From a virus (Duplodnaviria; Caudoviricetes), in the IMG/VR virus record IMGVR_UViG_3300032233_002657, positions 1-64,000 of that record: DNA of 64,000 nt, one strand, 5' to 3'. This document shows, one piece after another, positions 42,548 through 55,031 of the stretch. Position 1 is the stretch's first letter. Each line of letters opens with the position of its first letter. The notes beneath the pieces are model-generated. The model was given only the letters and a program-made list of their open reading frames with translations, was not told where the DNA came from and ran no database searches. Position numbers and translations under genes: made by a program.

Positions 42548-42978
42548 TGCCCTAGCCCAACACAGCCTAGCCGTGCCTGCCATTCCGCGCCGATCCAGGC
42601 CCGACCATTCCATGCCTCCCCGCGCCCCGCCTGCCTCGCCACGCCTCGACTCGCCTCAACGGACCACGCCTCGCCTGCCGTGCGGGACCGGGCCCCGCCA
42701 AACCGCGCCTAGCCTGCCGTGCCGCGCCTCGACTAGCCTCGCCCGACCTAACCTCGTCACGCCAAGCCTTGCCCAGCCGAGCCTGCCAAGCCGATCGCAG
42801 CCGGACCGCGCCACGCCTCGCCTGCCATGCCTCGCCCCGCCCCGAGCTGCCTCGTCAGACCCCGCCGCGCCACGCCTCGCCTGCCACGCCTAGCCCTGCT
42901 CCGCGCTGCCCCGTCAGGACCCGCCACGCCTGCCTCGCCACGCCTCGACCGGCCTCGCCGGACCACGCCTTACCTGCC
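42548..42978 (-). ncRNA. pentamer array A: about 9 units of GGCA+(GGY-NN)n, putative guide-RNA array
   Basis: GGCAGGY separators at + coords 42575, 42629, 42673, 42712, 42781, 42820, 42879, 42928, 42972; intervals 54, 44, 39, 69, 39, 59, 49, 44 (all 5n+4). Repeat is certain; RNA function is inferred. Confidence 0.8.
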
Positions 42979-43098: not shown

Positions 43099-43602
43099 TT
43101 ACAATATTGCTCTCATTTTATTAAGCATTTCAGATAGCTCTTCGTATTTAGAGTAAGTTGCTATAAGAGTTCTAATTCTGTCTAGCAACTGCTCTTTATG
43201 CTTGTTGTCAAGAGCGGGAGTCTTAGCGACTTCAATAGTAGGGTAGTAAGCCGACCCGTCTACTGAATTATGCACGTTTACAAAAGCTCTATATTTAACT
43301 TGAGTAGACACTTTAGAGTCAGGGTTATCTACCCTAGCAACTAAGCGCACTATGTTTAAAATCCTAGCAGCTTCTATTAAGTTTAACTTGTATTGCGCTA
43401 GATCTTTATCCCTAGTGAACAAACTATAGAATGTGTCGCTAGGTTCGCTGCTGTACTCTAATAGTGCCTCTGGAGTAAGCCTACCTCCGTTTTTATCTCT
43501 TATATCTATAACGGCTTCGTAAGCTTCTTTAGCCGTTACCCCAGGTATTTCTCTGCCTTTTCTGTACTCAAACCCTACGCTTTCCTTCTTCTTTTTTGCC
43601 AT
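43099..43602 (-). CDS. accessory protein between the RAMP-like gene and array A
   Basis: 167 aa, AGGAG RBS; GRLTPEALL...RAFVNV. Confidence 0.75.
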   Translation of the reverse strand: MAKKKKESVGFEYRKGREIPGVTAKEAYEAVIDIRDKNGGRLTPEALLEYSSEPSDTFYSLFTRDKDLAQYKLNLIEAARILNIVRLVARVDNPDSKVSTQVKYRAFVNVHNSVDGSAYYPTIEVAKTPALDNKHKEQLLDRIRTLIATYSKYEELSEMLNKMRAIL

Positions 43603-43634: not shown

Positions 43635-44384
43635 TTACTCCCATGAGAACTCGTTTACTACTAAGTAGGTTCCATGGCTTCCACCTTTTTCAGGCCTCCA
43701 TTCACCGATACCAACGGTTTGCCCACTGTGGCTAATAAGTTGCGCCATCTGCTCAGCAGTGATATGGGCTGGGTTAAACCTTACAGAAAACTTAATGCCC
43801 CACTTCTTGAACTCAGGCCTGTGACGAAGATCAGGCTTGCCTAGCATGATTCTTACACGGTCCTGCCTCATAACCGGCCCAACTTTATTTGGGTGGTAAA
43901 CTGGTGTAAGTTCTCCGCCTTCTTCATCGTTTAGGATAAAGAACATCTGGCGAGCCACAGGGCGGCTTAGCTTAGGGTTGTTAGAGGTTAACGCTGAGAT
44001 AGCGGCAGCTTTTAGAGCAAGCAGAGGAAATCCAGGCCGACCGTCTTCGAGACGATAGAATGCGTTATTATATTCTTCTTCTGGATCTTTATCTTTTCTA
44101 GGGGCTGCACCCTTAGCTGCTTTTGTCTTTGATGGCTGCATTGATTCTAGCATCTGCTGCCTGCTCTTTTCTCCGAAGTTGTTTACAAGTAGAGGCGTTG
44201 TGCCTTCTACCGTGAACTCAAGCGTGTGCAGAGTTACTGGAGCGAACGTAAAGTTTACTGGTACAATTTTGCTAGCGCTATCTAACGTAGTAGCTGCAGC
44301 CTCTCCGCTCATATTAACTGCTTCTTTAATTTTACGAGCCTTCTTCATGAATTCTTTAGTAGTTTCGCGTTTGATAGTAGCCAT
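43635..44384 (-). CDS. stand-alone Cas7/RAMP-like RNA-binding protein
   Basis: N-terminal strand LEFTVEGTTPLLV, PGFPLLALKAA, RHRPEF..W, C-terminal Gly-rich loop VGIGEWRPEKGGSHGTY; start set at MATIK after GGAG. Confidence 0.75.
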   Translation of the reverse strand: MATIKRETTKEFMKKARKIKEAVNMSGEAAATTLDSASKIVPVNFTFAPVTLHTLEFTVEGTTPLLVNNFGEKSRQQMLESMQPSKTKAAKGAAPRKDKDPEEEYNNAFYRLEDGRPGFPLLALKAAAISALTSNNPKLSRPVARQMFFILNDEEGGELTPVYHPNKVGPVMRQDRVRIMLGKPDLRHRPEFKKWGIKFSVRFNPAHITAEQMAQLISHSGQTVGIGEWRPEKGGSHGTYLVVNEFSWE

Positions 44385-50875: not shown

Positions 50876-51235
50876 TTAATTCTTCTGCGTTAGAGCTGCT
50901 TTGCTAGACTCAAGCTGGTTCAGCTCTTCTTTGAGCGTTGTTATTTTATTCTTCAGCTCTTCAGCTATTTTGTCTACGTTAGCTAGTATTTCTAGCATTA
51001 CGTCTGCTTGATGCTTAGACAGCTTAGCTGTTTGAATCATCAATGAGTGCAGCTCTCCAGGGAGCCTTACTGAGCCTTGCCTACCTATCATCAAGCCATA
51101 TGGAAAATCGTTCTGAGCGACATTCCAATCTAGCACTACCGCACATGATCTTAGCTCTGGAATCTTTTCTAATAGACTCAAGATTTTTTCGCTCAGGGCG
51201 TCTGTAACTTCTAGATGTCTAAGCTTCTCCGTCAT
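50876..51235 (-). CDS. hypothetical coiled-coil protein
   Basis: AGGAG RBS. Confidence 0.65.
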   Translation of the reverse strand: MTEKLRHLEVTDALSEKILSLLEKIPELRSCAVVLDWNVAQNDFPYGLMIGRQGSVRLPGELHSLMIQTAKLSKHQADVMLEILANVDKIAEELKNKITTLKEELNQLESSKAALTQKN

Positions 51236-51554
51236 CTTTTCTCCTCAGTGCTAGTTCGATGTGGTACTCCATAGCTCTGGCGGCTAAGGCTGTGGGGACT
51301 AAGAGTACAAACTCGTAATTCCTAAAGCAACACAAAAATGATAGCCAGAAACATACATGATAACCTAAACAAAACCTACAGGTCATTAGGTCGCCTATGA
51401 GTGATACACCTTTTCGGTCTGAGTATTTCCAAACCTCTGTATGCGCTCTAGCCGTAGCAAATACACTGCCTTCGAACCATGCGTCTAATGCAGCCTTGCT
51501 TGCTAAAGCTACTACTACAACCGCCAAAAACACATCGCCCATTTCGTATTCCAT
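51219..51554 (-). CDS. DUF1360-like membrane protein
   Basis: GDLMTCRFCLGYHV, hydrophobic helices; start at MEYEM after AGGAGG. Confidence 0.6.
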   Translation of the reverse strand: MEYEMGDVFLAVVVVALASKAALDAWFEGSVFATARAHTEVWKYSDRKGVSLIGDLMTCRFCLGYHVCFWLSFLCCFRNYEFVLLVPTALAARAMEYHIELALRRKDDGEA

Positions 51555-51584
51555 AACCAAGACCTCCTGTTTAAAGATTACTAA

Positions 51585-51840
51585 CCGTGCCTGCCTCGCC
51601 ACGCCTCGACTCGCCTCAACGGACCACGCCTGCCGAGCCGTTTCGTGCCGTTTCGCGTCAAACCCCGCCCCGCCTTGCCTGCCTTGCCTATCCGTGCCTC
51701 GCCGGGCCTGGCCATGCCTGCCAAGTCCGTGCCTTGCGCCACCGCGACCCGCCGGGCCTGCCGCGCCTCGCCTTGCCCGCCCTCACCCCGCCTCGCCTGC
51801 CGCGCTTTTCCCAGCCGCACCATAACGAGCCGCGCCTTAC
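51585..51840 (-). ncRNA. pentamer array B1 (about 6 units), downstream of tRNA
   Basis: separators at 51589, 51628, 51677, 51716, 51756, 51795; intervals 39, 49, 39, 40, 39. Confidence 0.8.
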
Positions 51841-51854
51841 TTTTGAAACTATAT

Positions 51855-51926
51855 TGGGCCACCTCGGATTCGAACCAAGAACCAAGGAATTATGAGTTCC
51901 CTGCTCTGCCTTTGAGCTAGTGGCCC
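51855..51926 (-). tRNA. tRNA with CAU anticodon, probably tRNA-Ile2 (lysidine type); no encoded CCA
   Basis: GGGCCAC/GTGGCCC acceptor stem, CTCATAA loop, TTCGAATC T-loop; C4/C5 as in TilS substrates. Confidence 0.88.
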
Positions 51927-51934
51927 TATGAGTT

Positions 51935-52537
51935 GCCTGCCTCGCCAGCCCTCGCCCCGCCTGGCCACACCGCGCCTGCCAAGCCACGCCATGACTCGCC
52001 GCGACGTGTCTAACCTAGCCTGCCTCGCCAGCCCTCGCCCGCCCTTGCCATACCGAGCCTGCCGTGCCACGTCTCACCTATTCTTGCCCCGACATGCCTG
52101 CCGCGCCTCTCCCGAACAGGCCGCGCCTCACCTAGCCTGCCGCTCCTCGCCGCGCCTCACCTCACCTAGCCGTGCCTGCCATGTCCCGCCTGGTCAGGCC
52201 TCGCCCCGCCTAGCCTGCCTTGCCTAGACCTGCCCCTCCATGCTGTGCCCCGCCTAGCCTGCCTCGCGTTACCATGCCGCTCCATTACAAACCCGGCCGT
52301 GCCTGCCATACCTCGCCGAGACAGACCTTGCCGAGCCGCACCGCGCCTGCCATGTCCCGCCATGTCGTGCCTAGCCTGCCGCGCCGAACCTCGGCTGACC
52401 TCGACTTACCGTGCCTGCCTCGCCTCGCCAGGCCCAGCCTTGCCTGACCGTGCCTGCCGCTCCTCACCACGCCTCGCCGAACCTCGCCCAGCCTAGCCTG
52501 CCTTGCCACGCTCTGCCTAGCCGGGCCGTACCTTGCC
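51935..52537 (-). ncRNA. pentamer array B2 (about 15 units), upstream of tRNA
   Basis: separators 51935...52496; 14 intervals: eight of 39, five of 44, one of 29 (all 5n+4). Confidence 0.82.
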
Positions 52538-52560
52538 TCAATTTAGCAAGTTACCTTGCC

Positions 52561-52884
52561 CTAATTTCTTCTACTCCTTTTCTTACTACGATAGCCCCTA
52601 CCGTTATATCGACCCTTTGAGTTTCTGATATAGGAGTCTTGAAGATGCCTGGAGAACTTTCCTGGAGTCCAGTAAGGTTTTCCAGCCTCCATGTTGCTAT
52701 CGGTCCGTAAGAACATGTAGCACAGAACTATACTAAATAACATAAAAACGAATGACTTCAATACGATAGAGGCCACAATGCCTCCGGCAATAATCCAAAA
52801 GGATATTGTTGTATTGTCATCGTTTGCCGTATATTGTTTGTAGCTCATTTTATATAATCCCGAAGGGCCACTCACGTGATACAC
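52561..52884 (-). CDS. small membrane protein (likely start MSYKQ, 52848)
   Basis: hydrophobic hairpin, basic tail. Confidence 0.6.
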   Translation of the reverse strand: MYHVSGPSGLYKMSYKQYTANDDNTTISFWIIAGGIVASIVLKSFVFMLFSIVLCYMFLRTDSNMEAGKPYWTPGKFSRHLQDSYIRNSKGRYNGRGYRSKKRSRRN

Positions 52885-53222: not shown

Positions 53223-55031
53223 ATGATAAATACCCCTAATCAAACGTCCAGCGCTTCTTCTAATCAAAAGGCCTTAAACGAAGTTATAACACGTATAAAG
53301 AAAGGCTCGTTTCCAAACCTCTCTTCGCTTCTACCGGCAATGCTAAACCTCGATGGAAAGCCCTATAGCCTTGAGAAACACTTTCAGTTTGAGCCTCTTT
53401 TCAATATTTATATGCCTAGACGAACCATATTGAAAACTGGTCGTCAGGTGGGTAAGAGCACGGTTATCTCTGCGCATGGAGTTATAACCTGCGCTACCGT
53501 TCCATACTTTCGAAACCTTTATATTACTCCTTTGTTTGAGCAGGTGCGCCGCCTGTCTAGTAATTACGTAAGACCCTTCATAGAGCAATCTCCGGTCAAA
53601 TCTATTTTAATTGGCCCTGAGACTGAGAACAGCGTGCTGCAAAGAAGCTTTCGCAACAACAGCATGATGCAGTTCTCATTTGCTCTACTCGACGCCGATA
53701 GAATTCGTGGTATACGAGCCGATCAGGTTATCATCGATGAAGTTCAGGATATGGATGGAGATCACATACCTGTTATTCGAGAAACCATGTCGGCCAGTGA
53801 ATGGGGTAACATGAAAATCGCAGGTACCCCTAAGACCTTAGATAACACCATAGAGCGAGAATGGTTGTCGTCATCTCAAGCTGAATGGTGTATAGTATGC
53901 AGAGCTTGCAAGTACACAAACGTCTCATCGGTTAATCATGACCTTATTCGCATGATTGGCCCTGTAAGGGCGGATATCTCAGAGCATAGCCCTGGAACCG
54001 TTTGTGCAAAATGTAGCAAGACTATTTACCCTAAAGATGGAAGATGGATTCATAAACATCCGGAGAGAAGACTCAATTACGCCGGATACCATATTCCTCA
54101 ACCAATAATGCATATTCATTACTCCAGACCAGATAAATGGGCGGAGCTGAATGCAAAGAGAGAAGGGATGGGAAACTATACACACGAAAGGTTCTTAAAC
54201 GAAGTCTTAGGAGAAAGCTCCGGAGCAGGCCTACAGCTCGTATCACTTCTTGAGCTGCAAGCTGCTTCTAATCCTGATCTTAAGAACAATCCGAGAGACC
54301 CATCTTCAAGCTGTAAGGATGAAATTCTTAAAAAGTACGCTCACCGAATACTTGCCGTTGACTGGGGTGGCGGTGGTGAGAAGGGCGTAAGCCTTACTGT
54401 ACTTGCTGTCATGGGCATTACCTCTACTGGTGTCATAGAGGTCCTGTGGTCTAAGCGCCTTCTCACCCCCCATGACCACATGGCTGAAGCTGCAGAGTGC
54501 CTTAAGATTCATCGCATGTTTAAATGCGAGTTTATAACTCATGACTTCTCTGGAGCGGGCGTAGTCCGAGAAACTGTTTTAGTTCAGTCGGGAATATCGC
54601 CTACTCAGCTGCTGCCTGTACAGTACGTAAGAGCAGCCAGCAAAGGTATGTTTACTTACATACCGTCAGCGCCAGCTCACCCCAGGGCTCATTACAGAGC
54701 TGATAAGACACGAAGCTTACTGACTACATGCTCAGCCATACGCACTAAGAAGCTTAGATTCTTTGCCTATGACTACGTTAGCTCAGAAGACCCAGGCCTT
54801 ATTCAAGACTTCCTAGCCTTGATTGAAAGCAAAGCCACTACAGCGGCTGGGTCTGACATATACACTATTCAGAGAAACCCAGCCTTATCCGACGACTTTG
54901 CTCAGTCGGTTAACATAGGCTGCTTGTGCCTGTGGCATATGACTGGAAGATGGCCTGACTTTAAAACAGATAGATACTCTGTAACTAGAGAGCAAGCTAT
55001 GGAAACCGGAATGGGCGGATGGAACACCTAG
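53223..55031 (+). CDS. terminase large subunit (gpA-like)
   Basis: KTGRQVGKS, IRGIRADQVIIDEVQD, AGTP, CxxC pairs, NEVLG, AVDWGGG nuclease motif. Confidence 0.85.
   Translation: MINTPNQTSSASSNQKALNEVITRIKKGSFPNLSSLLPAMLNLDGKPYSLEKHFQFEPLFNIYMPRRTILKTGRQVGKSTVISAHGVITCATVPYFRNLYITPLFEQVRRLSSNYVRPFIEQSPVKSILIGPETENSVLQRSFRNNSMMQFSFALLDADRIRGIRADQVIIDEVQDMDGDHIPVIRETMSASEWGNMKIAGTPKTLDNTIEREWLSSSQAEWCIVCRACKYTNVSSVNHDLIRMIGPVRADISEHSPGTVCAKCSKTIYPKDGRWIHKHPERRLNYAGYHIPQPIMHIHYSRPDKWAELNAKREGMGNYTHERFLNEVLGESSGAGLQLVSLLELQAASNPDLKNNPRDPSSSCKDEILKKYAHRILAVDWGGGGEKGVSLTVLAVMGITSTGVIEVLWSKRLLTPHDHMAEAAECLKIHRMFKCEFITHDFSGAGVVRETVLVQSGISPTQLLPVQYVRAASKGMFTYIPSAPAHPRAHYRADKTRSLLTTCSAIRTKKLRFFAYDYVSSEDPGLIQDFLALIESKATTAAGSDIYTIQRNPALSDDFAQSVNIGCLCLWHMTGRWPDFKTDRYSVTREQAMETGMGGWNT

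What the first reader, a model, noticed from the sequence alone, without database searches (positions are those of the whole stretch)
51585..52537. Larger guide array (about 21 units) with a tRNA embedded in it
Seen: 15 units, then an intact tRNA(CAU), then 6 units, all on the same strand with only short linkers, 7 kb upstream of the RAMP gene. Units are mostly 7-8 pentamers. Established: RNase P and 3' tRNA nucleases cut at tRNA ends, and tRNA genes are common integration sites. Inference: the tRNA serves as a natural processing spacer for the guide transcript, and the array works in trans.
Basis: partly seen in the sequence, partly recalled or inferred. Interest (0 to 1): 0.85.

Follow-up and report, generated by a model that had tools for sequence, protein, structure and literature searches.

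The report
VIPR guide-RNA array holding a tRNA
This stretch of a 181-kb phage genome is a 21-unit array of guide RNAs of the recently described VIPR system (a phage-borne relative of CRISPR), unusual in that the phage's only tRNA gene sits exactly between two guide units.

Summary
On the minus strand, 51584-52560 holds 21 units. Each is 5-9 NNGGY pentamers closed by a GGCAGGC core, and 18 of 19 core-to-core distances are 5n+4. The array is split 15/6 by a tRNA(CAU) at 51855-51926, the only tRNA in the genome.

This is a known kind of element: a "staggered" vrRNA array of a VIPR system (bioRxiv 10.64898/2026.04.26.720920). The genome's single Vipr gene (43638-44384) lies 7.2 kb away. It matches SUSP1 Vipr and folds like Cas7/Csm3. 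Read by the published 1-nt-skip rule, three units gave 30-49 exact IMG/VR matches against 9-10 for two controls, mostly codon-aligned. One unit reads the catalytic DVVVANPPF motif of N6-adenine DNA methyltransferases.

The tRNA-in-array layout is not mentioned in any of the four VIPR papers. I found it only here and in one near-identical contig, out of about 170 other array loci. Linkers of 8 and 16 nt leave no room for a separate promoter or terminator, so co-transcription is very likely. A dedicated processing role is unproven, because the other junctions have no tRNA. AUA makes up 58% of the phage's Ile codons, so the tRNA has a translational reason to exist.

Two related phages also place guide arrays directly against tRNAs. 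Overall this is a new variant of a known kind, of moderate interest.

The parts
51935..52560 (-). Array B, upstream part: 15 vrRNA-like units, each NNGGY pentamers closed by a GGCAGGC core. It starts right after the stop codon of ORF 52561-52884.
51927..51934 (-). 8-nt linker (AACTCATA) between core 15 and tRNA position +1. This is the tRNA 5' leader, where RNase P would cut (inferred).
   Evidence: identical in L121
51855..51926 (-). tRNA with anticodon CAU. It is an elongator type (G1-C72 pair), has no encoded CCA, and is the only tRNA in the 181-kb genome.
51839..51854 (-). 16-nt AT-rich linker (the tRNA 3' trailer) before the first pentamer of unit 16.
51584..51838 (-). Array B, downstream part: 6 units. 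The last core lies at 51589-51595 and runs straight into the ribosome-binding site of ORF 51219-51554.
52561..52884 (-). 107-aa ORF immediately upstream of the array, no known family. It is conserved in relatives that lack the array.
51219..51554 (-). 111-aa ORF immediately downstream of the array (AGGAGG, then ATG at 51554), no known family.
43635..44384 (-). vipr: 249-aa Cas7/RAMP-like protein and the only copy in the genome. It is the presumed partner of both arrays.
43099..43602 (-). 167-aa gene directly after vipr, in the position of a vap accessory gene. It shows no similarity to SUSP1 vap1.
42565..42974 (-). Array A: 8 cores with the same grammar, directly after vipr-vap. It shares one unit with array B (42679 and 51634).

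Best explanation
Array B is a second, remote 'staggered' vrRNA array of this phage's VIPR system. It is transcribed on the minus strand inside a run of small genes. The precursor yields about 21 short vrRNAs, each with 5-9 GGY/NN repeats and a GGCAGGC element at the 3' end. The genome's single Vipr protein, encoded 7.2 kb away, polymerises on the GGY motifs and presents the NN dinucleotides. These read double-stranded DNA with one base skipped per pair, so they read codon positions 1-2 of genes in competing elements or the host and silence them. The embedded tRNA is a genuine translational tRNA, possibly the lysidine-modified type that reads AUA. It sits exactly at a unit boundary and rides on the array's transcript. 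Its excision by RNase P and 3' trimming necessarily cuts the precursor once, but it is not the array's general processing device.

Shown here: the anatomy, the Vipr homology and fold, the single gene copy, the codon-aligned pattern matches, and the conservation of the tRNA. Inferred: transcription, processing, loading in trans, and silencing.
For: The published description of VIPR, the 1-nt-skip rule and staggered arrays comes.

Vipr evidence:
- The tblastn hit to phiSUSP1 lies in the gene flanked by long intergenic regions, as in the paper.
- Pairwise E is 1e-12 over the G-loop region.
- The AF2 model has pLDDT 81, and the top Foldseek hits are Csm3/Cas7 chains with E down to 3e-6.
- There is one copy in the genome.

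In 65 of 80 Vipr-homologue loci, a pentamer array lies on the same strand as vipr. The GGCAGGY 5n+4 spacing is typical of the clade: 285 of 388 intervals.

Target tests by the skip rule:
- Unit 51683 gave 41 exact hits for 18 fixed bases, 36 of them on [DE]VVVANPP[FL] in open frames of 150 aa or more. One checked gene is HsdM/N6_Mtase.
- Unit 52502 gave 49 hits. Of these, 29 lie at one homologous site just before a DnaB-like helicase gene, one in the same metagenome as the phage's nearest relatives. Two composition-matched controls gave 9 and 10 hits.
- Unit 52351 gave 30 hits, 27 of them wobble-aligned, against 3 of 9 and 3 of 10 in the controls.

tRNA evidence:
- A cloverleaf forms in its sequence context.
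- A homologue in relative L129 is about 80% identical, with compensatory changes in three stems.
- AUA accounts for 58% of Ile codons.
- The 140-nt tRNA interval is identical in L121 while neighbouring units differ.
- No promoter-like or terminator-like site lies between the tRNA and the units.
Against: The target evidence rests on 3 of 29 units and 2 controls. Alternative skip rules could not be tested on the large collection. No convergence of several units on one target element was seen, and there was no enrichment in the local sets. The host is unknown. The units are shorter (mostly 7-8 repeats) than the 9-16 repeats of characterised vrRNAs, and staggered arrays were not experimentally confirmed in the preprint. 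The promoter scan covers only sigma-70-type sites, and first-stage notes say this phage has its own RNA polymerase. Whether the tRNA reads AUG or AUA is undetermined.
Confidence: 0.7

Rival explanations
1. The tRNA has been co-opted as a dedicated processing element, a natural tRNA-guide polycistron. RNase P and the 3' tRNA nuclease would create the 3' end of unit 15 and the 5' end of unit 16, and this cut would be needed for normal guide yield, much as hammerhead ribozymes punctuate other VIPR arrays.
For: The tRNA sits exactly at a unit boundary with linkers of only 8 and 16 nt. The tRNA interval is 100% conserved in L121 while flanking units turn over. In relative G003, a tRNA-Thr is followed within 1 nt by the first vrRNA of a tail-type VIPR locus. 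There the repeated 'tail' folds as a 7-bp stem enclosing two hairpins, one with a 7-nt T-loop-like loop, with 4 compensatory pairs. In relative G002, a CRISPR-like mini-array ends about 20 nt before the homologous tRNA-Met. Ribozyme-interspersed arrays are published.
Against: The 19 other internal junctions of the same array have no tRNA, so another mechanism must process them. None of about 170 other array loci has a credible embedded tRNA. The tRNA family predates the array at this locus and is kept as a normal cloverleaf. The closest near-complete relative lacks the tRNA, the array and Vipr altogether. The adjacency in relatives could simply reflect insertion of accessory modules into a tRNA cluster.
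Confidence: 0.2
2. Array B is not used by the phage's own Vipr as a weapon. Instead it is an acquired or decoy array of 'orphan' vrRNAs that titrates or redirects Vipr proteins of co-infecting phages.
For: Orphan vrRNAs that borrow or redirect Vipr in trans are published. Array B lies 7.2 kb from vipr, in a variable hotspot that holds a protein-coding gene in 89%-TerL relatives.
Against: The core and grammar are the same as in array A, next to vipr. One unit is shared between the two arrays, and an L121 array-B unit resembles a unit of array A. This points to one pool of guides for one protein. No unit matched vipr homologues or their arrays above controls.
Confidence: 0.07
3. The repeats act at the DNA level (protein-binding iterons, packaging or replication signals near the terminase gene, or G-quadruplex-prone DNA) and are not guide RNAs.
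For: The array lies 0.7 kb from the large terminase gene. The GG-every-5-nt pattern could form two-tier G-quadruplexes (read from the sequence).
Against: The same grammar sits next to Vipr homologues, on the vipr strand, in 65 of 80 unrelated viral contigs. Relatives with 81-89% identical terminase lack it. The NN positions give codon-aligned matches to conserved genes, which a structural DNA repeat would not.
Confidence: 0.03

Closest known systems
VIPR systems with 'staggered' vrRNA arrays (bioRxiv 10.64898/2026.04.26.720920, fig. S18)
   Same: GGY/NN pentamers, adjacent units overlapping by 1 nt (which gives the 5n+4 spacing), a minimal RAMP protein (Vipr) plus a small accessory gene, and phage-borne.
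   Different: Here there is a second array 7 kb from vipr, inside a gene run, and it is interrupted by a tRNA gene. Units are short (mostly 7-8 repeats). The word tRNA does not occur in that paper, nor in the two follow-up VIPR preprints.
Hammerhead-ribozyme-interspersed vrRNA arrays (same preprint, fig. S19)
   Same: A structured RNA with its own cleavage pathway lies between guide units in one transcript.
   Different: Ribozymes sit between adjacent vrRNAs throughout those arrays and cut themselves. Here a single tRNA sits between unit 15 and unit 16 and would be cut by host enzymes.
Orphan or solo vrRNAs acting in trans (bioRxiv 10.64898/2026.10.15.759431)
   Same: vrRNA genes lie away from any vipr gene and are loaded in trans.
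   Different: Those elements lack vipr and borrow it from a co-infecting phage. Here vipr is in the same genome.
tRNA-linked small RNAs: engineered polycistronic tRNA-gRNA arrays and gammaherpesvirus-68 tRNA-miRNA transcripts (from my own knowledge, not checked here)
   Same: RNase P and tRNase Z release small regulatory RNAs that flank a tRNA in one transcript.
   Different: In those cases every small RNA is bounded by a tRNA. Here only one junction of 20 is.
Virus-borne mini-CRISPR arrays (from my own knowledge; one example seen here in relative L129)
   Same: A guide array carried by a virus, presumably used against competing viruses. In L129 it abuts the homologous tRNA-Met.
   Different: CRISPR repeats are about 29 nt with 32-nt spacers and depend on Cas proteins. 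The window has no such repeats.

Membership tests
VIPR system | vrRNA made of tandem GGY/NN (YNNGG) pentamers | tested here: met
   Of 204 pentamers, position 3 is G in 192, position 4 is G in 168, and position 5 is C or T in 177. The first two positions vary. There are 78 period-5 links against 5.3 in shuffles.
VIPR system | A Vipr protein: a minimal RAMP with an RRM core, G-loop and thumb | tested here: met
   The 249-aa ORF 43638-44384 matches the SUSP1 Vipr G-loop region (E 1e-12; tblastn). It matches phrog_4652 at 3e-22. The AF2 model has pLDDT 81, and 55 PDB chains match at E<=1e-3, led by Csm3/Cas7. TM-scores are only 0.4-0.5.
VIPR system | A vap accessory gene next to vipr | tested here: inconclusive
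   A 167-aa ORF follows vipr directly, but it has no Pfam hit and no similarity to SUSP1 vap1. It has only a weak match to phrog_15946.
VIPR system | NN dinucleotides specify a gapped (1-nt-skip) DNA target, typically wobble-aligned in genes of competing elements | tested here: met
   This was tested in silico only, on 3 units. They gave 30, 41 and 49 exact IMG/VR hits against 9 and 10 for two controls. Wobble-aligned hits were 27/30 and 38/41, against 3/9 and 3/10 in the controls. Binding was not tested, and other skip lengths were not tested on the large collection.
VIPR system | vrRNAs are expressed, processed and bound by Vipr | not testable with these tools
Staggered vrRNA array architecture | The end of one vrRNA is the start of the next, with a 1-nt overlap, so the pentamer frame shifts by -1 at each junction | tested here: met
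   18 of 19 non-tRNA core-to-core distances are 5n+4. The same holds for 285 of 388 intervals in Vipr-homologue loci.
CRISPR array | Direct repeats of about 24-48 nt separated by unique spacers of similar length | tested here: not met
   The only constant element is the 7-nt core. Tandem Repeats Finder reports only degenerate periods of 5, 10, 15, 34 and 39. Rfam finds no CRISPR-DR family.
tRNA-punctuated guide polycistron | Guides are released by RNase P / tRNase Z cleavage at flanking tRNAs | not testable with these tools
   The anatomy is compatible at one junction only, with linkers of 8 and 16 nt. No RNA end data are available.

The most novel reading that the evidence does not exclude
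In this family of roughly 180-205-kb phages, tRNAs and tRNA-like folds may have been recruited as punctuation for guide-RNA transcripts. Three layouts point that way: a tRNA(CAU) set between units of a staggered vrRNA array (this window), a tRNA-Thr fused to the first vrRNA of a locus whose repeated tails are themselves tRNA-like (G003), and a CRISPR-like mini-array abutting the homologous tRNA-Met (G002). If so, host tRNA-processing enzymes would set guide ends, which would make these natural counterparts of engineered tRNA-gRNA arrays.
Probability: 0.2. Interest if true: 0.7.

Novelty: new variant of a known kind. Interest (0 to 1): 0.5.

Why it matters
VIPR was described only in 2026, and how its arrays are transcribed and cut into guides is largely open. 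Staggered arrays in particular have no published RNA data. A natural array with a tRNA placed exactly at a unit boundary gives a ready-made test of whether host tRNA-processing enzymes take part in guide maturation. It also indicates that the GGCAGGC element is the 3' end of each unit.

The codon-aligned matches suggest what such a phage aims at. One guide reads the invariant catalytic motif of N6-adenine DNA methyltransferases, including type I restriction-modification HsdM. Another reads the leader of a replicative-helicase gene of a co-occurring phage family. If confirmed, this would extend VIPR targets from satellites and prophage switches to restriction-modification and replication genes.

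Tried and rejected
- Host identification: I searched the CRISPR-like repeat of relative L129 in genome contigs.
- Local target scans under skip rules 0-3 with shuffled controls showed no enrichment. This covered the phage's own genome, 79 TerL-relative loci, 120 array loci, 79 Vipr-homologue loci and the whole closest relative G001.
- No other unit hit the candidate target family of unit 52502.
- The L121 variant of unit 52502 (GA changed to CA) did not hit that family, so there is no arms-race signal.
- tRNA linkage elsewhere: ARAGORN's 'tRNA-Asp' inside the L004 array was not confirmed by Rfam. The tRNA-Met genes about 0.7-1 kb downstream of arrays in L259 and L266 are separated from them by protein-coding genes.
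- Rfam found no ribozyme in the window's arrays or in G003's repeated element.
- The tRNA has no blastn match in E. coli genomes, so Met versus Ile2 identity could not be settled by similarity.
- Substitutions between orthologous units of the window and L121 favour NN over GGY and core positions only weakly (12/162 against 10/288, p = 0.07).
- A CRISPR-array reading was rejected because there are no long repeats.

Full report
**Context.** The window is the first 64 kb of a single-contig, 181,489-bp virus record with 44% GC. It encodes:
- a large terminase (53223-55031, +);
- a family-A DNA polymerase fused to a UDG domain;
- an SbcC-like ATPase and a helicase.

Its terminase is about 31% identical to those of Salmonella phage Arash and some 187-kb Vibrio phages. 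It is 51-99% identical to 80 IMG/VR contigs, several of them 184-205 kb long.

**Observation.** Two GC-rich, C-skewed islands stand out on the + strand: 42.5-43.05 kb and 51.55-52.6 kb. Nearly all genes here lie on the minus strand, and read on that strand the second island is a chain of NNGGY pentamers. The chain is broken at regular points by a 4-nt step inside the invariant heptamer GGCAGGC.

- There are 21 heptamers: 15, then a tRNA, then 6.
- Of the 19 core-to-core distances that do not span the tRNA, 18 are 5n+4 (values 29, 39, 44 or 49). One is 40.
- Period-5 GGY links number 78 in 953 nt, against 5.3 +/- 2.3 in shuffles.
- Of 41 genomic copies of the heptamer on this strand, 29 lie in the two islands.
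- The tRNA (51855-51926, anticodon CAU) is called by ARAGORN and by Rfam at 63.3 bits. It folds as a cloverleaf in context. It is the only tRNA in the whole genome.

**What it is.** A literature search found the 2026 preprint that defines VIPR systems (read). These have four features:
- They are phage-encoded and consist of a minimal RAMP protein (Vipr), an accessory gene (vap) and the vrRNA guides.
- The vrRNAs are made of alternating GGY/NN motifs.
- The NN dinucleotides read double-stranded DNA with one base skipped between pairs.
- Known array architectures include "staggered arrays" whose units overlap by 1 nt, and arrays interspersed with hammerhead ribozymes.

In the YNNGG frame, the 4-nt step at GGCAGGC is exactly a 1-nt overlap between the last pentamer of one unit and the first of the next. 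The arrays here are therefore of the staggered kind.

**The protein partner.** ORF 43638-44384 (minus strand, 249 aa) is present, followed by a 167-aa ORF and the smaller array A.
- By tblastn it hits 153 phage records. These include phiSUSP1 at the gene whose flanks match the published locus diagram, and cluster-F-like mycobacteriophages whose upstream region also matched array B by blastn.
- Pairwise, it shares the G-loop region with SUSP1 Vipr at E 1e-12.
- An AlphaFold2 model built on 31 sequences (pLDDT 81) finds Csm3/Cas7 chains of type III complexes as its best PDB matches, with E down to 3e-6.
- tblastn finds no second copy in the genome.
- IMG/VR holds 515 contigs with a relative. In 65 of the 80 fetched, a pentamer array lies on the vipr strand, usually 0.5-1.1 kb downstream.
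- The GGCAGGY 5n+4 spacing dominates in that clade.

Membership in VIPR is therefore met on grammar, protein and phage context. The vap gene cannot be matched to a known vap.

**Do the units behave as guides?** I converted units into 1-nt-skip patterns (NNxNNx...) and scanned IMG/VR.
- Unit 51683 (18 fixed bases) gave 41 exact hits. Of these, 36 fall on the codons for [DE]VVVANPP[FL] in frames open for 150 aa or more. This is motif IV of N6-adenine DNA methyltransferases. The one gene I checked is an HsdM-type N6_Mtase (Pfam E 5e-99). The phage itself has no such motif in any long ORF, and its best self-match is 14/18.
- Unit 52502 (16 fixed bases) gave 49 hits. Of these, 29 lie at one homologous site: the last eight codons of a 95-aa ORF that ends at the start codon of a DnaB-like helicase gene, next to a replication-initiator gene. 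One such contig comes from the same metagenome as the window's two near-identical relatives.
- Two composition-matched controls gave 10 and 9 hits. They were the same dinucleotides in reverse order and the L121 variant of the unit. The largest family among them had 3 members.
- Unit 52351 gave 30 hits, 27 of them aligned with the wobble position of the longest local ORF. The controls gave 3 of 9 and 3 of 10.

These results fit the published rule and the published tendency to aim at conserved codons. They rest on three units, however. I saw no convergence of several units on one element and no signal in the smaller local sets.

**The tRNA.** The anatomy is precise.
- If each unit is read as pentamers closed by a 3' GGCAGGC, the array contains exactly 15 + 6 complete units.
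- Core 15 (51935-51941) is followed by 8 nt and then tRNA position +1.
- The discriminator base is followed by 16 AT-rich nt and then the first pentamer of unit 16.
- The array begins without a core and ends with one.

The tRNA therefore sits at a unit boundary and breaks no unit. This also argues that the core is the 3' element of each vrRNA, parallel to the published 3' tail.

There is no room for an independent promoter or terminator, and the consensus scan finds none. Its only "terminator" is the anticodon arm itself. That scan covers only sigma-70-type promoters. Co-transcription is thus very likely, and RNase P and 3' trimming must then cut the precursor at this point.

**Is that the tRNA's purpose?** Four lines argue against a dedicated role:
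1. The 19 other internal junctions have no tRNA.
2. Among 107 array-bearing loci found by pattern and 65 found through Vipr homologues (the two sets overlap), none has a credible embedded tRNA. The exception is L121, a contig with 99% identical terminase.
3. The tRNA is older than this arrangement. A homologue about 80% identical, with compensatory changes in the acceptor, anticodon and T stems, exists in relative L129/L130.
4. AUA is the phage's commonest Ile codon: 33 per 1000, or 58% of Ile codons. The tRNA is of elongator type, and its closest database relatives are the CAU tRNAs of T4-like phages. From my own memory, unchecked, several of those are lysidine-modified Ile tRNAs, and the C4-G69/C5-G68 pairs seen here are TilS determinants in E. 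coli. So a translational role is plausible.

Three observations favour some link:
1. The 140-nt tRNA interval is identical between the window and L121, while the units on both sides differ.
2. In relative G003 (terminase 63% identical), a tRNA-Thr is followed within 1 nt by the first unit of a different, tail-bearing VIPR locus, and two more tRNAs follow vap. Its repeated tail folds as a 7-bp closing stem around two hairpins, one with a 7-nt T-loop-like loop, with four compensatory pairs among four copies.
3. In relative G002, four 29-30-nt repeats spaced 62 nt apart end about 20 nt upstream of the homologous tRNA-Met.

These could mean that tRNA processing is exploited. They could equally mean that accessory guide modules tend to land in this family's tRNA cluster near the terminase gene.

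**Evolutionary dynamics.** The site is a variable hotspot.
- Relatives with 81-89% identical terminase carry a protein-coding gene there instead.
- The closest near-complete relative (G001, 190 kb) has no tRNA, no Vipr and no array at all.
- Between the window and L121, about 12 units are shared in order. Others are replaced, inserted or lost.
- In L121 three small ORFs interrupt the downstream part of the array.
- One L121 array-B unit resembles a unit of the window's array A, and the window itself shares one unit between arrays A and B.

This unit turnover fits a guide repertoire under changing selection.

**Verdict.** The array is real and is a member of a known, very recently described kind: a VIPR staggered vrRNA array, here as a second locus served in trans by the single Vipr. 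The embedded tRNA is a rare, lineage-specific architecture that is not mentioned in any of the four VIPR papers found. I rate it a new variant of a known kind. The passenger-tRNA reading is more likely (0.7) than a dedicated processing role (0.2).

Noticed in passing
L129:1320-1600 (minus strand; the same in L130); IMG/VR contig of 189,675 bp: A CRISPR-like mini-array: 4 copies of a 29-30-nt repeat spaced 62 nt apart. It ends about 20 nt upstream of a tRNA-Met(CAU) about 80% identical to the window's tRNA. No cas genes were looked for, and the repeat has no match in 185,579 species genomes.
   Followed up: partly
L316:2360-2467 and L314:1-2100 (record G003, 191,966 bp): A different VIPR architecture in a relative. 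A tRNA-Thr is followed directly by four vrRNAs, each with a roughly 75-nt structured element (a 7-bp stem enclosing two hairpins, tRNA-like, with compensatory changes). Then come vipr, a vap-like gene, tRNA-Arg and tRNA-Ile. No Rfam family matches the element.
   Followed up: partly
window 51634-51683 (unit 51683) against L328-L368: The 1-nt-skip reading of one unit equals the codons of DVVVANPPF, the catalytic motif IV of N6-adenine DNA methyltransferases, including type I HsdM. This suggests a guide aimed at restriction-modification or methylase genes. The phage has no such gene itself.
   Followed up: partly
L417:8488-8775 and 28 homologous IMG/VR loci (L369-L416): A family of phage contigs carries an exact 16/16 match to unit 52502. 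The match lies at the end of a 95-aa ORF abutting a DnaB-like helicase gene, next to a replication-initiator gene. This is a candidate competitor phage, and one member comes from the same metagenome as the window's nearest relatives.
   Followed up: partly
whole genome (G000): AUA is the commonest isoleucine codon (33 per 1000, or 58% of Ile codons, in 101 long ORFs). This is unusual, and relevant because the only tRNA has a CAU anticodon.
   Followed up: no
L202:1480-1866 (Mycobacterium phage Donkeykong gp48) and similar cluster members: The annotated 'hypothetical protein' upstream of the Vipr homologue overlaps a pentamer array that matched array B by blastn. It is probably a vrRNA array mis-annotated as a CDS.
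   Followed up: no
L152:10200-11050 (minus strand): Another relative carries vrRNA-like units rich in NNGGT, each ending in a GGTTTTTTCTTTCAAAAC-type T-run. This is a further array architecture in the same phage family. A tRNA-Thr lies about 0.5 kb upstream, with a gene in between.
   Followed up: no
L121:1200-1745 (minus strand): In the near-identical relative, three small ORFs are inserted inside the downstream part of array B, leaving a 2-unit remnant before the conserved ORF.
   Followed up: no
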